64,000 nucleotides of DNA from a bacterium (GTDB lineage Bacteria; UBA8248), in contig CBDBEV010000001.1 in the NCBI GenBank assembly GCA_965204535.1, positions 736,001-800,000 on the forward strand. The letters are read 5' to 3'. This document shows, in pieces, positions 38,754 to 53,683 of the stretch (position 1 is its first letter; every line of letters begins with the position of its first letter). The position numbers and the translations under genes were made by a program. The notes under the pieces are model-generated. The model searched no databases. It was not told where the DNA came from and worked only from the letters and a program-made list of their open reading frames with translations.

Positions 38754-39785
38754 CTAAAGGGGTTTGCGGGCCAGGAAGCAGTACAGCGGCGTGAAGATGC
38801 CCGATTTGCCGCCCGCGACATAGGCGTCCGCGGTCCGGTCCAGGAGCCGAACGACTTCCGCGGAACCCTTCGGAAACAGCCGGACCACCTCGGCCAGCTT
38901 CGAGCCCGCGAGGACCGCCCTGCGGCCGTGCGGAAGCCTGCGCAGGGCGTTGCCCAGCGTCCCGTGCCGACTCTCCATGGGTTGATACCATGGTGTGGAC
39001 GGCCCCTCCCGGACCTCCCGGTCCATCCCTTCGACGACCTGGAATCCCGCCGCTTCGAGCGCCTGGTTCACTTCCCCGAACGTCGCGATCTCCTTGAGCG
39101 CGATGCCGCGCATGAGTTCCCGCTTGATGGCCCGGTGCCGGCCGTCGTTCGGGTCGAACTTCTCCGTCAGGCACATCTCCTGCCCCCAGAACAGGGCGCC
39201 GGGTTTCAGCACGCGGAATATCTCCGCGAACGCGCGTTGCTTGTCCGGCGCGTGGCACGTCGACTCGATGGCGTAGCCCCGGTCGAACGCTTCGTCATCG
39301 ATGGCGCTCATGTCCATGAAGCTGCACGCCTCGTAGTCGATCATGTGGTCGAGCCCCGCCTCGGCGTTCAACCTCTTCGCCCTCTCCAGCTGGATTTTGT
39401 TGATGTTGATCCCGACGACCCGGACGCCGGCCTCACGGACGACGCGGCGCATCGGGCCGCCGATGCCGCAGCCGACGTCGATCACCGTCATGCCCCTCTG
39501 CAACTCCAGTTGGTCGATCATCAGCCGCTGATGCCGGACTTTCGAGTCCTCCAGACTCTCGTTCGGCGAGAGGGGCGCGAAGTGCAGGGATTCGCCCCAA
39601 CCCCACACCATGAAACCGCTGCAAAGGTCGTAGTAGGCCTTCACCGTTTCGGTGTGGTCGTACCCGCTCGCGCCGTCGGACTCCGCCGCCCGGTCGATCC
39701 AGCCCTCGAAGTCTTGCACACGGCGGGTGACGTTCCCCTCTTGATAGGCATCCTTGAGTTCTTTCGACAGTTTGCCTATTTCCAT
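38754..39785 (-). CDS. Sterol C-24 methyltransferase-like (ERG6/SMT family); start ATG 39785
   Basis: YYDL..F..WGWGESLHFA, DVGCGIGGPMR, AIESTCHAP, EIFRVLKPG, C-terminal GIFTPLY.FLARKP. Confidence 0.9.
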   Translation of the reverse strand: MEIGKLSKELKDAYQEGNVTRRVQDFEGWIDRAAESDGASGYDHTETVKAYYDLCSGFMVWGWGESLHFAPLSPNESLEDSKVRHQRLMIDQLELQRGMTVIDVGCGIGGPMRRVVREAGVRVVGININKIQLERAKRLNAEAGLDHMIDYEACSFMDMSAIDDEAFDRGYAIESTCHAPDKQRAFAEIFRVLKPGALFWGQEMCLTEKFDPNDGRHRAIKRELMRGIALKEIATFGEVNQALEAAGFQVVEGMDREVREGPSTPWYQPMESRHGTLGNALRRLPHGRRAVLAGSKLAEVVRLFPKGSAEVVRLLDRTADAYVAGGKSGIFTPLYCFLARKPL

Positions 39786-39876
39786 GGCGTGGCGTGTCCT
39801 TTCTCTCTTCGTCTCCGGCGAAACCCGCGCGGGCGATGGCGCGGACGGCTCTCCCGCCGGCCTCGCCCCTCCGAAC

Positions 39877-40914
39877 TCAATCCGTCCGATCCGGATAGAA
39901 CTGCTCGCAATAGCGCCGAAAGACGCCAATCTCCCCGTCGGAACTGCACAGGCGGGGGCGGGGCACATAATGTTTCCGGTCCCATATGACGACGTCCGAT
40001 AAAACGTCGCGCTTCTGGGCCGCTATGATGATTTTGTTCATGAGCCGGGTGCGAAGACCGGACGGCAGGAAGCGCATGCCGAAGATCGGCCGCTTCGGCT
40101 TTCGTATTCGCTTTAGCTGGCTGACCAGCACCATTTCAATGACCTCGCCGTCGATAGGCGTCGCGAGCACCCACAGGCGTGTATCCATGCCGATGCCGTC
40201 CTCGTGAACCTCGACGAACGAATAGCCCAGCCCGTGCACGTGGGTGACGGCGGAAACGTCGTATGTGTAGATATTCATCCCGGCGAGGGTCTGGCTTCGC
40301 GTGAAGTCGAAGCAGCTCTTGAGGTAGGAGCCCTCCACCTCTATCGTTCCGACCCGGGTCACGCTGCCGAAGCCGTGCACGTAGCGCAGATGCCCGTCGT
40401 CGACGGAGTTCTCGGTCGTTTCCTGGGGATGCCCCGAGAAACGCACGCTCCAGGTTTCGAGGTCGCTCCAGTCGTCTCTGCTCGGCTCTTCGGGGAGACT
40501 CCATTGCGGCGGGCGTCCGCCCAGCCCCCACCAGGCGAAGACGAGACCCAGGATTTCGCGGGTTTCGAAAACCTTAAGCCTGGCGGTCCTGGGCGCAGGC
40601 GCGTAGGGCGTGGCCACGCATTGACCGGTGGCGTCGTACTCGAACCCGTGAAAGGGACAAACGAGGCAGCCGTCCCGCACCACGCCGCCGACTTCGGGCC
40701 CGAGTTCGGAACCCAGATGCGGACAGAGGTCCTCGGCCACGCAGATGCGCCCCTCATCGTCGCACCAGACGACGATCTGCTCGCCCATCCAGGTTCTTTG
40801 GATCAGCTTCTTTTTTTCTATCGTCTTTCGGGTGGCGATGAAGTACCAGCCTTCCGGGAATGGGTAAAGCGAGGCTGTTTCTCTGCGCTCGATTCGCTCG
40901 GCTTTCATCGGCAT
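39877..40914 (-). CDS. Rieske oxygenase of the Neverland/DAF-36 / KshA steroid-acting group
   Basis: FPEGWY, CPHLG, CPFHG, ENSVD.GH..VH, D..IW..K.Y..RP.L...DG.I..FRRY..QFY. Confidence 0.88.
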   Translation of the reverse strand: MPMKAERIERRETASLYPFPEGWYFIATRKTIEKKKLIQRTWMGEQIVVWCDDEGRICVAEDLCPHLGSELGPEVGGVVRDGCLVCPFHGFEYDATGQCVATPYAPAPRTARLKVFETREILGLVFAWWGLGGRPPQWSLPEEPSRDDWSDLETWSVRFSGHPQETTENSVDDGHLRYVHGFGSVTRVGTIEVEGSYLKSCFDFTRSQTLAGMNIYTYDVSAVTHVHGLGYSFVEVHEDGIGMDTRLWVLATPIDGEVIEMVLVSQLKRIRKPKRPIFGMRFLPSGLRTRLMNKIIIAAQKRDVLSDVVIWDRKHYVPRPRLCSSDGEIGVFRRYCEQFYPDRTD

Positions 40915-41046
40915 CCGCCATCCCCCGGTTCCAAGGCTGCGGCTTCGCCTGCGGGTTCGGCCGGCGTCATGCCCGGCCGGCAACCGTATGAGGCGCGCGT
41001 AATCGTGTTCCTCGTCCCGGCGGGACGCTCGGGAGCCACGCGACGC

Positions 41047-52087: not shown

Positions 52088-52220
52088 GGTTCCCTCCGGT
52101 CGAAAGTCATCGGCAGAGCCGGCAAAAGCAGAAAGCGGAGCGCATCGTGTTCTTCTGCGATTATGATTATATTACCAGTTTGCGGCATATAATTCTTCCC
52201 GAAATCGACCCCGCCGTTCG

Positions 52221-52270
52221 GGGGATTGTTGAAATACCCCGCAATGCCGGGCTCCCCGTCATTCCGGCTT
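52221..52270. repeat. Left-end TIR plus partial CGTC module
   Basis: GGGGATTGTTGAAATA ... CGTCATTCCGGC. Confidence 0.6.
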
Positions 52271-52324
52271 GCGCCTGACGGCCGCCGCGCTTCGCCGGAC
52301 TGTCCGCGCCAGGGGAGCCCCGCC

Positions 52325-53683
52325 TCACGCCTTCCTGAAGCGCCGGCCATACATCGTGCGCCCGTAGAAGTTGAACCACTTCCTGGCTTCTGAATCTTGA
52401 AACGGATAGTCCGCCCCCAGCTGCCTCGCCGCGGCGAGACCCGTGACGAAACAGGTCTCCTGGCTGTTGATGAGCGTGTGGGCGCCGCAGTGCCACGTCC
52501 GCCTCCTGCCTTGCAAGAAGCGGAACAGGTGGATGAGTAAGGCGATGTGGGGCACGTCGTGGACGATGTGCTGAAACCACCACCGCTTGATGATCTTGCC
52601 CTCATCGATTCGGCTGACGGGGTTGTACGTTACCAGGCACGGCTTGTCCGAGCGGCCCGCCCAGGGCTGCTGGTTGTGCATGATGTAGGTGATCTCGTAG
52701 TTGTCGGGCCGCGCGCCGTATTGTTCGATGTGGTTGCTGCGGGTGGCGAGCGGCCGGACGTCGTTATCCGGCAGCACCGAGGCGTCCGAATGGACGACCG
52801 TGTGGTTGTGCAGTTCGCTCTCATACCGTATCGAGGAGAGCAGCCAGCTCTCGAACCTCGTCGCCTCATCCAGCATCATCAGCGTCTGGTTCGCGTTGCA
52901 CGCGAAGACGACGTCATCGAACGTCTCCTTATTCCCCGCTTCATCCTCCACGACGACCTCGGATGCGCCCCGGTGCACCTTCCGCACCGGACGGCCCAGA
53001 TATATTTTTTCGTGGAAATCCGCCGAGAGCGCCTCGTAGATGCGCCGCGTACCCCGGTCCCAGGTCTGCATCGGCGTGGCGGATTCGATGTCGAAGAACT
53101 CCAGATACCGCGAGAACAGGGACGCGGGCATGTCGAACACGTTCGTCGCCATCAGGAAGTTGACGAACATGGGCTTGAGAATCTTGTACCTGAAATCGCC
53201 GGAAAACCCGCCCAGGTTCAGTACCGCGCCCATGCTCACGTAGTTGAACGGGTTGAGCGCGCCCAGGAGCCGCGAGCGGGAGCGGCTGAGCCCGCCGAAC
53301 CACTGCAGGCGTTTTAAGAGTCTCTGGAATTTCTCGATCTCAGGCTGGAGCTGCCGCCTGATGTCGGAATCGAAATCGTGCGCGTAGACGCCGCCCCGGT
53401 ACTTCACGCTGTAGCTGAAGCGGGTATCGAGCAGCTCGATCCCGTACATCTGCATCAGCAGGAGGATGTGGTGGTAAACCTTCGGGATACAGGCGGTGAC
53501 GGAGATATCGAAGGGGATCGAGGTGCCGTCGTCCTGCGGCATGTCGGCGGTGACGGCGTTGCCGCCCACCTGTTCCTGCGCCTCGAAGACGCGGAAATCG
53601 AATCTGTCGGGGTGGCGGTTCAGCGCCCAGGCCGCCCCCAGTCCCGAGACCCCCGCCCCGATGATGGCAACTCTTCTCGGCAT
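52325..53683 (-). CDS. FAD-dependent oxidoreductase (COG2907/amine-oxidase fold); start ATG 53683
   Basis: AIIGAGVSGL.AA..L, FEA...GGNA.T, FD.VVFAC, H.D.S.LP, VTYNP, W.CGA....SQE..F.TG; GGAGG RBS. Confidence 0.88.
   Translation of the reverse strand: MPRRVAIIGAGVSGLGAAWALNRHPDRFDFRVFEAQEQVGGNAVTADMPQDDGTSIPFDISVTACIPKVYHHILLLMQMYGIELLDTRFSYSVKYRGGVYAHDFDSDIRRQLQPEIEKFQRLLKRLQWFGGLSRSRSRLLGALNPFNYVSMGAVLNLGGFSGDFRYKILKPMFVNFLMATNVFDMPASLFSRYLEFFDIESATPMQTWDRGTRRIYEALSADFHEKIYLGRPVRKVHRGASEVVVEDEAGNKETFDDVVFACNANQTLMMLDEATRFESWLLSSIRYESELHNHTVVHSDASVLPDNDVRPLATRSNHIEQYGARPDNYEITYIMHNQQPWAGRSDKPCLVTYNPVSRIDEGKIIKRWWFQHIVHDVPHIALLIHLFRFLQGRRRTWHCGAHTLINSQETCFVTGLAAARQLGADYPFQDSEARKWFNFYGRTMYGRRFRKA

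What the first reader, a model, noticed from the sequence alone, without database searches (positions are those of the whole stretch)
38754..53683. Candidate sterol import-and-remodelling system without a cyclase
Seen within 15 kb: five lipid-modifying enzymes (SMT, Neverland/KshA Rieske, GPP34-P450, ERG3/ERG25-type desaturase, COG2907 flavoprotein) plus a trans-envelope set (MMPL, LolA-like, TPR protein, two OM barrels) and a relic of a second SMT. There is no squalene epoxidase, oxidosqualene cyclase or ring-degradation gene in the window. Known: these families act on sterols (C-24 alkylation, 7,8-desaturation or 9-alpha-hydroxylation, C-5 desaturation or C-4 oxidation); RND proteins HpnN and BstA move hopanoids and sterols; bacterial SMTs are reported from sponge metagenomes. 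Inference: a pathway that takes host or dietary sterol, edits side chain and rings, and shuttles it across the envelope, possibly contributing to unusual host sterols. I do not know of this full gene set as a characterised pathway.
Basis: partly seen in the sequence, partly recalled or inferred. Interest (0 to 1): 0.92.

Follow-up and report, generated by a model that had tools for sequence, protein, structure and literature searches.

The report
Symbiont sterol-tailoring and export module
Ten neighbouring genes in a probable sponge symbiont with no detectable sterol-ring cyclase form a gene module shared across many bacterial phyla that likely modifies borrowed sterols and pumps them outward rather than importing them, by chemistry that is still untested.

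Summary
All ten genes and the SMT relic are real, and the 95.7%-complete genome has no detectable cyclase or epoxidase. The conserved core is Rieske + GPP34-P450 + flavoprotein + divergent SMT + RND pump. In 80 Rieske-anchored loci from many phyla, the P450 is a neighbour in 60. An MMPL (32) or an AcrB-type efflux pump (23) fills the transport slot, never both, which favours export over import. Sterol support: the module abuts a de novo sterol cluster in two Nitrospirales, P450 and MMPL paralogs follow a cyclase in three congeners, and the TPR model matches the BstC/TatT fold (Z 21.4). Only 17 of 75 other carriers hold this cyclase, so any sterol substrate is mostly borrowed. The parts are published separately; I found the module in none of 10 literature searches. 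This scan noted it before on other genomes.

The parts
38754..39785 (-). SMT1, divergent sterol-methyltransferase homolog, 343 aa. Region I Y-E-Y is replaced by M-V-W; it fails 2 of 25 residues shared by functional SMTs (T78S, F89L).
39877..40914 (-). Rieske oxygenase with KshA_C domain, 345 aa; cluster ligands C64/H66/C86/H89 and iron ligands H175/H180/D307 are invariant
41047..41976 (-). Small outer-membrane beta-barrel (PF13505); accessory, in 10 of 80 loci
42649..44937 (+). MMPL / HAE3-like RND inner-membrane transporter, 762 aa, 12 hydrophobic segments
44952..45041 (+). Relic: last 29 codons of the canonical SMT2, which is intact at this position in four congeners
45111..45290 (.). Genome-wide intergenic repeat (260 blastn hits in the genome, 169 of 80 bases or more); a related copy lies near 46200-46370
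45404..46144 (+). TPR protein with an N-terminal hydrophobic segment, 246 aa; predicted fold of the TatT/BstC/PTPIP51 group
46622..48670 (+). GPP34-cytochrome P450 fusion, 682 aa; heme Cys604 and ExxR intact; I-helix lacks the acid-alcohol pair and carries a near-invariant Tyr470
48973..49698 (+). FA_hydroxylase/sterol-desaturase-superfamily membrane enzyme, 241 aa, with His boxes; accessory
50013..51269 (-). Large outer-membrane protein, 418 aa, DUF1302-related through its relatives; its start abuts the LolA-like stop
51269..52087 (-). LolA-like periplasmic carrier (PF17131), 272 aa; closest structure 3BK5
52325..53683 (-). FAD-dependent oxidoreductase, 452 aa; closest structure LkcE (E 1.8e-26)

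Best explanation
This is one copy of a gene module shared across phyla that likely oxidises and alkylates a sterol the cell obtains from its host or neighbours, and likely pumps the product outward across the envelope. Shown: gene content, cross-phylum linkage, purifying selection, no detectable cyclase, intact metal and heme ligands. Inferred steps: (1) a sterol enters the membranes by partitioning or through a barrel; (2) the Rieske enzyme oxidises ring B/C (7,8-desaturation or 9-alpha-hydroxylation, undecided); (3) the P450 performs a non-standard, probably substrate-assisted oxidation or rearrangement; (4) the flavoprotein makes or moves a side-chain double bond and SMT1 methylates that non-standard acceptor; (5) MMPL lifts the product out of the inner membrane, the BstC-like TPR and LolA-like proteins carry it, and the large barrel delivers it to the outer membrane or outside. 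Whether the purpose is detoxification, surface decoration or supply to the host is open.
For: Linkage: in 80 Rieske-anchored loci the P450 is present in 60, the flavoprotein in 32, SMT1 in 26, and MMPL or AcrB in 55 with both in 0. Shared genus profile: Rieske 12, P450 13 (one a fragment), LolA-like 16 of 22 congeners and 0 of 19 other family genomes each; flavoprotein 12 of 22 plus one relic. dN/dS 0.12-0.32 for 9 of 9 genes tested. Sterol link: the module directly adjoins SE-OSC, CYP51, ERG24 and a second SMT in L067 and L068; SE-OSC is followed by GPP34-P450 and MMPL paralogs in G013, G016 and G020; all 5 cyclase-bearing congeners carry the module; the Rieske's best solved relatives are KshA; the TPR model matches 8G52 Z 22.3, 7T1S 'bacterial sterol transporter' Z 21.4, PTPIP51 Z 20.5 and TatT Z 19.8, above the other TPR proteins at 17.4 or less except TTC0263 at 19.9. 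External source: this cyclase is in only 17 of 75 other carriers and not in G000. Outward direction: AcrB-MFP-OMF substitution; AmeABCD (HAE3 RND + LolA-superfamily + DUF1302) is described as efflux/tolerance (PMC6394551); BstABC as a conduit to the outer membrane (PMC10942540).
Against: No enzyme of the module has a shown activity. SMT1 deviates at substrate-binding residues. The P450 is no closer to sterol P450s than to others: top structural matches are tied at 16-20% identity and include fatty-acid and terpene enzymes. MMPL/LolA/barrel genes persist beside MpaB/Lcp oxygenases in 4 congeners without the Rieske or SMT, and G000 has four more MMPL paralogs beside such genes. The BstC-like fold is shared with non-sterol carriers, and the TPR is in only 8 of 80 loci, 4 of them congeners. 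No KshB-type reductase was found in the genome and no redox partner in the module. MMPL-LolA-barrel relatives are induced on long-chain alkane in Thalassolituus (PMC6304351) and DUF1302/DUF1329 genes are needed on fatty esters in Pseudomonas, so uptake is not excluded. The loci are not independent samples.
Confidence: 0.5

Rival explanations
1. The module tailors and exports a non-sterol lipid, such as the cell's own squalene-type isoprenoid or a branched fatty acyl chain; SMT1 would be a repurposed C-methyltransferase.
For: SMT1 lacks the canonical Region I residues in 30 of 30 rows with data. A HpnC-HpnD fusion is present in G000 with no cyclase. Sister MMPLs pair with MpaB/Lcp oxygenases. 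A methylase + flavin-desaturase pair acts on fatty acids in furan fatty acid synthesis (UfaM/UfaD, PMC7380195; that UfaD belongs to this flavoprotein family is recalled, not tested). Squalene methylases derived from SMTs in Botryococcus are recalled.
Against: Squalene-synthase-family genes are near-universal in the family (36 of 41), unrelated to module presence. The module is physically tied to sterol cyclase clusters, often carries a second, canonical SMT, and its Rieske is of the KshA type.
Confidence: 0.22
2. One reading: the transport set imports host sterol, and the enzymes remodel it for the cell's own use.
For: No cyclase in G000. TatT-type proteins belong to import systems (PMC10942540). 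Related RND/LolA/barrel genes are tied to growth on hydrophobic substrates. Host-sterol methylation was proposed for a cyclase-free Chlamydiae MAG (PMC10070321).
Against: The transport slot is taken by an AcrB-MFP-OMF set in 23 of 80 loci and never together with MMPL. Close MMPL paralogs follow a cyclase in genomes that could make the triterpenoid themselves.
Confidence: 0.17
3. GPP34-P450 is a secreted, PI4P-binding factor that blocks phagosome maturation (the proposal of PMC11706023), and its neighbours are incidental.
For: The fusion is reported only from sponge symbionts.
Against: No N-terminal hydrophobic segment; linkage to the Rieske in 60 of 80 loci; heme ligand conserved in 186 of 186 rows.
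Confidence: 0.05
4. The cluster is the entry to steroid catabolism (KshA-type ring opening).
For: KshA is the closest solved relative of the Rieske.
Against: No PF00970 reductase; one KshA_C gene and one P450 in the genome; no recurrent catabolic neighbour among the clusters found in 3 or more of 80 loci; methyltransferases are not part of catabolism.
Confidence: 0.04

Closest known systems
Bacterial sterol C-24 methyltransferases and their clusters (Brown et al. 2023, PMC10070321; Brown and Welander 2025, bioRxiv 10.64898/2025.12.19.695621)
   Same: SMT fold and Sterol_MT_C domain; 23 of 25 residues shared by functional SMTs. The gene-id spacing of their Nitrospira MAG (SMTs at ...274 and ...270) fits the layout of L067/L068, so an SMT1 ortholog was probably assayed.
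   Different: SMT1 is a separate clade without Region I Y-E-Y; no cyclase here; the passages and tables I read do not list the Rieske, GPP34-P450, flavoprotein or transport genes.
Clusters of steroid genes (CSGs) of Ircinia symbionts (PMC9531527)
   Same: Cross-phylum, horizontally moved, sponge-symbiont sterol genes; the module adjoins such a cluster in L067/L068, and congeners G005 and G012 carry one.
   Different: CSG core is ERG24-CYP51-OSC; none of these was found in G000.
GPP34_L (GPP34 + P450) proteins of sponge symbionts (PMC11706023)
   Same: Same two-domain architecture.
   Different: That paper proposes phagosome modulation; its main text has no occurrence of 'methyltransferase', 'lipid', 'MMPL' or 'sterol'. 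Here the gene is part of a lipid-tailoring module.
BstABC sterol transport of Methylococcus capsulatus (PMC10942540)
   Same: RND-type inner-membrane protein plus a TPR-like carrier with the BstC fold (Z 21.4, rmsd 3.1, 209 aligned).
   Different: 17% identity; no BstB (PhnD-like) gene in the cluster; LolA-like and barrel proteins instead; no de novo pathway.
AmeABCD of Castellaniella defragrans (PMC6394551)
   Same: HAE3-type RND + LolA-superfamily periplasmic protein (same PDB relatives 3BK5, 3BUU, 4Z48) + DUF1302-type outer-membrane protein.
   Different: No AmeC/Ycf48-type gene; shorter LolA-like and barrel proteins; cargo there is monoterpene.
KshA 3-ketosteroid 9-alpha-hydroxylase; Neverland/DAF-36 cholesterol 7-desaturase (the latter recalled)
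   Same: Rieske + KshA_C architecture and intact ligands.
   Different: Distant (E 1e-23 to KshA); no KshB-type reductase; no direct comparison with Neverland was possible.

Membership tests
Functional sterol C-24 methyltransferase | SAM-binding Region II and Sterol_MT_C domain | tested here: met
Functional sterol C-24 methyltransferase | [quoted passage not shown] | tested here: not met
   23 of 25; T78S and F89L; numbering by offsets from the preprint's motifs, which gives 25 of 25 in 12 of 17 non-SMT1 rows
Functional sterol C-24 methyltransferase | Methylates desmosterol or 24-methylenecholesterol | not testable with these tools
   The result for the probable ortholog is in a figure that is not held
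De novo sterol cluster (CSG) | OSC, CYP51 and ERG24 in the genome | tested here: not met
   genome 95.7% complete
KshAB steroid 9-alpha-hydroxylase | Rieske and mononuclear iron ligands with KshA_C domain | tested here: met
KshAB steroid 9-alpha-hydroxylase | KshB-type reductase (PF00970) in the genome | tested here: not met
   control rang in 9 of 14 genomes
Steroid catabolic pathway | KstD 3-ketosteroid dehydrogenase | tested here: inconclusive
   Seven full-length PF00890 matches, not classified further
Neverland/DAF-36 7-desaturase | Grouping with characterised Neverland proteins | tested here: inconclusive
   Only automatic Atlas cluster names, tied with generic Rieske clusters at 0.96-0.97
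ERG3/ERG25 sterol desaturase/oxidase | FA_hydroxylase domain with His boxes | tested here: met
   superfamily level only
ERG3/ERG25 sterol desaturase/oxidase | Orthology to ERG3 or ERG25 | not tested
   No reference sequences from a tool
GPP34_L | N-terminal GPP34 fused to P450 | tested here: met
Canonical P450 monooxygenase | Heme Cys motif and ExxR | tested here: met
   186 of 186 rows
Canonical P450 monooxygenase | I-helix acid-alcohol pair | tested here: not met
   Replaced by an A-S/A-x-Y-x-G pattern, Tyr in 185 of 186 rows
HpnN / HAE3 equivalogs | Score above NCBIfam cut-off | tested here: not met
   HAE3 158 of 352 bits; HpnN 60 of 752 bits
BstABC | BstC-type TPR-like fold | tested here: met
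   fold only, shared with TatT, 8G52, PTPIP51 and TTC0263
BstABC | BstB (PhnD-like) periplasmic protein in the cluster | tested here: not met
   No such family among the ten genes
BstABC | Sterol binding | not testable with these tools
   needs a binding assay

The most novel reading that the evidence does not exclude
The module is the missing symbiont enzymology behind sponge-typical sterols. The Rieske makes a 5,7-diene or 9-hydroxy sterol; the tyrosine-type P450 rearranges or cleaves it (towards seco- or epoxy-sterols); the flavoprotein-SMT1 pair installs unusual side-chain carbons (for example C-26 methyl); and the pump hands the product back to the host. Cyclase-bearing and cyclase-free symbionts would then share one sterol pool.
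Probability: 0.15. Interest if true: 0.88.

Novelty: new variant of a known kind. Interest (0 to 1): 0.62.

Why it matters
Who makes the unusual sterols of sponges is an open question that bears on sterane biomarkers for early animals. This module supplies four untested enzymes, two with conserved non-canonical active sites, and a transport route, all expressible in E. coli or yeast. It also gives the symbiont-only GPP34-P450 fusion a metabolic context that competes with the published phagosome hypothesis.

Tried and rejected
The assay result for the probable SMT1 ortholog could not be read: it is in a figure, and the supplement searches (file 7 has no text) and the 2022 preprint did not give it. 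The 2025 preprint's supplementary alignment was not seen and may list which SMTs were inactive. No RNA holder was listed, which is no evidence either way. Complex prediction for LolA-like + barrel was not available. Foldseek in 'pdb' was not available; the VIA wide search was used. The P450 fold search does not discriminate substrate and barely tested the GPP34 domain. The ERG4/ERG24 family search had no ringing control; tblastn with a congener's ERG24 was used instead. The careful SMT tree did not finish; the quick tree is used only for the split between SMT1 and the canonical SMTs, and it carries a long-branch warning for SMT4. Squalene as substrate was not supported by gene distribution. 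Single-sequence PDB search of the TPR protein was uninformative. Literature searches returned no paper describing the module; subscription journals are mostly not covered.
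Full report
Observation. The ten genes are intact ORFs at the stated coordinates with the domain content given under parts. They lie in divergent and convergent blocks with gaps of 91-672 bp, some holding a genome-wide repeat. The relic after MMPL is the last 29 codons of a second SMT; it is 72% identical to SMT2 and its DNA is about 92% identical to SMT2 3' ends of congeners. 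dN/dS against congener orthologs is 0.12-0.32 for 9 of 9 genes tested (approximate counting method; the small barrel was not tested).

The genome. G000 has 4.56 Mb in 2 contigs and is 95.7% complete. It has no match to the cyclase or squalene-epoxidase families, and tblastn with congeners' SE-OSC, ERG24 and ERG2 finds nothing at 1e-6. It has one P450 and one KshA_C gene, both in this cluster, no PF00970 reductase, and a fused HpnC-HpnD, a family found in 36 of 41 relatives. Seven full-length PF00890 proteins were not classified, so kstD is unresolved. Loci that coincide with congeners are titled 'Nitrospinota bacterium'. A sponge habitat is inferred from the GPP34-P450 fusion, reported only from sponge symbionts (PMC11706023, passages and section 25); it was not determined here.

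Congeners. Of 22 same-genus genomes, 12 carry the Rieske, 13 the P450 (one a fragment), 12 the flavoprotein (plus one relic), 16 the LolA-like gene, and 9 a full SMT1 plus one partial. The Rieske, P450 and LolA-like gene were found in 0 of 19 other family genomes. The cluster is syntenic in G002, G003, G011, G012, G013, G014, G016 and G020, and rearranged in G022. An intact canonical SMT2 follows MMPL in G003, G011, G013 (two copies) and G016. The desaturase is in none of these clusters; 1 of 22 congeners has an ortholog, elsewhere in its genome, and among 80 wider loci one has a truncated ortholog in the module and one a distant homolog. The flavoprotein is unlinked in five congeners yet tracks the module. 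Five of 22 have an SE-OSC fusion, DCTAE motif seen in four, and all five carry the module. In G013, G016 and G020 the cyclase is followed by GPP34-P450 and MMPL paralogs, the P450 broken in two of them. Against sterol specificity, G004, G006, G008 and G010 have LolA-like and barrel genes beside MMPLs and MpaB/Lcp-type oxygenases without the Rieske or SMT, two of them with relics of the flavoprotein or P450.

Wider distribution. A scan with a Rieske alignment confirmed 570 loci in 30 of 64 parts of the collection; the best 80 were kept, 5 of them congeners. They are MAGs of Nitrospirales, Alpha- and Gammaproteobacteria, Acidobacteriota, Latescibacterota, Rhodothermales, Dehalococcoidia, Dadabacteria and others, at 61-76% identity across phyla, which points to horizontal spread. 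Within 10 kb: P450 60, MMPL 32 (including distant ones at 23-27%), flavoprotein 32, SMT1 26, any SMT 29, AcrB 23, MFP 19, OMF 17, LolA-like 12, large barrel 12, small barrel 10, TPR 8, SE-OSC 2. Some loci end at contig ends, and the rows are not independent. MMPL and AcrB never co-occur (0 of 80; about 9 would be expected if independent). In L067 and L068 the module adjoins SE-OSC, CYP51, ERG24, a second Rieske and a canonical SMT. A genome-wide search with a congener's cyclase domain found orthologs (69-81%) in 17 of the 75 non-congener genomes, plus one fragment. That is close to the 115 of 537 Ircinia MAGs with steroid clusters in PMC9531527 (passages), so most carriers cannot make the ring with this cyclase.

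Enzymes. SMT1 and 30 relatives form a clade apart from canonical SMTs (quick tree). By the list in bioRxiv 10.64898/2025.12.19.695621 (parts 1-3 of 5 read), SMT1 keeps 23 of 25 residues shared by functional SMTs and fails T78 and F89; it also lacks Y81 and E82. That preprint found such deviations in 7 of 11 inactive SMTs. The deleted SMT2 passes 25 of 25 in G003, G011 and G016. In PMC10070321 (parts 1-3 of 7, supplement 4 whole, supplement 1 in part) 4 of 24 metagenomic SMTs were inactive, and the Nitrospira MAG's two SMTs are four gene ids apart, as in L067; I could not see the result for the second. The Rieske keeps all ligands and is closest to KshA among solved structures (E 1.7e-23); Neverland versus KshA chemistry is undecided. 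The P450 keeps Cys604 and ExxR in 186 of 186 aligned family rows (redundant rows not removed), but the I-helix has no acid-alcohol pair and a tyrosine in 185 of 186. From general P450 knowledge this suggests substrate-assisted or non-hydroxylating chemistry. Its model (pLDDT 84) matches many P450s equally. The flavoprotein is closest to LkcE and weakly to 2B9W (recalled as a fatty-acid isomerase). The analogy to UfaD, a flavin desaturase working after a methylase (PMC7380195, passages), is a lead; family identity is recalled. SMT1 and flavoprotein co-occur in 18 loci, SMT1 alone in 8, flavoprotein alone in 14, so their coupling is loose. The electron source for the Rieske and the P450 is unexplained.

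Transport. The MMPL is HAE3-like but below all cut-offs. With a LolA-like protein and a DUF1302-related barrel it resembles AmeABCD, described as monoterpene efflux (PMC6394551, passages); related genes are also tied to growth on alkanes and fatty esters (PMC6304351 and bioRxiv 2020.07.04.188060, passages). The TPR model (pLDDT 97.5) matches 8G52 (Z 22.3, rmsd 2.6, 210 aligned), 7T1S (Z 21.4, rmsd 3.1, 209), PTPIP51 7CC7 (Z 20.5), TTC0263 (19.9) and TatT (19.8), then drops to 17.4. 7T1S is one of the two Bst structures of PMC10942540, whose BstC is TatT-like (passages). A commentary doubts the lipid-transfer role of the PTPIP51 domain (PMC10243591, passages). A shared fold does not show function. 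Interchange with a classical tripartite efflux set is the strongest argument for export.

Verdict. A real, selected, widely shared module; sterol-like substrate about 0.7; export over import about 3 to 1; exact reactions unknown. Its parts are published separately, and ten library searches found no description of the module. PMC10202945, PMC13078400 and the 2022 preprint were seen as passages only and added nothing. Earlier notes of this scan describe the same core on other genomes; they are not independent support. What this window adds from my own calls is the full trans-envelope version, the BstC-like carrier, the MMPL/AcrB exclusion, the non-canonical P450 helix, the loss of the canonical SMT, and the accessory status of the desaturase.

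Noticed in passing
G000 C2:1587575-1591149 and C2:2530599-2536347 (L003, L004); L146-L149: MMPL paralogs (58-61% to the window's) sit beside MpaB/Lcp-type heme oxygenases in several congeners: a possible second isoprenoid-oxidising export module.
   Followed up: partly
L055:5651-13965, L053:7946-15948, L056:6278-14276: Three-gene unit SE-OSC fusion, GPP34-P450, MMPL, without CYP51 or ERG24 beside it; the cyclase is about 67% identical to the CSG-type fusion and may make a different triterpenoid.
   Followed up: partly
L001 (G000 C1:702584-704743): NUDIX-HpnC-HpnD triple fusion; squalene-synthase-family genes are in 36 of 41 relatives although most congeners have no cyclase.
   Followed up: partly
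L040:6434-14096, L042, L043: G011 and G012 carry another Rieske (KshA_C) next to a canonical SMT, and a further very divergent SMT (17 of 25 residues kept).
   Followed up: partly
L033:7618-8640, L041:9702-10733, L086, L089, L134: SMT2 proteins with F81 + G249, the combination associated with (but not sufficient for) 24-isopropyl formation.
   Followed up: partly
L038 (G012:C23): A de novo sterol cluster that looks fragmented (short cyclase ORF, broken flavoprotein), next to module genes.
   Followed up: no
window 56561-60159: A 604-aa lipoprotein-like protein with no Pfam match followed by a Slam-type outer-membrane protein; similar lipoproteins recur elsewhere in the genome.
   Followed up: no
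window 53811-54689: Ankyrin-repeat protein with a signal-like N-terminus flanking the cluster; present at the same place in G016, G018 and G020.
   Followed up: no
G000 C1:719324-719977 (L007): Stand-alone short GPP34 gene, 33% identical to the fusion's domain.
   Followed up: no
window 45111-45290 and 46200-46370: Intergenic element matching itself on both strands, with about 260 blastn hits in the genome.
   Followed up: partly
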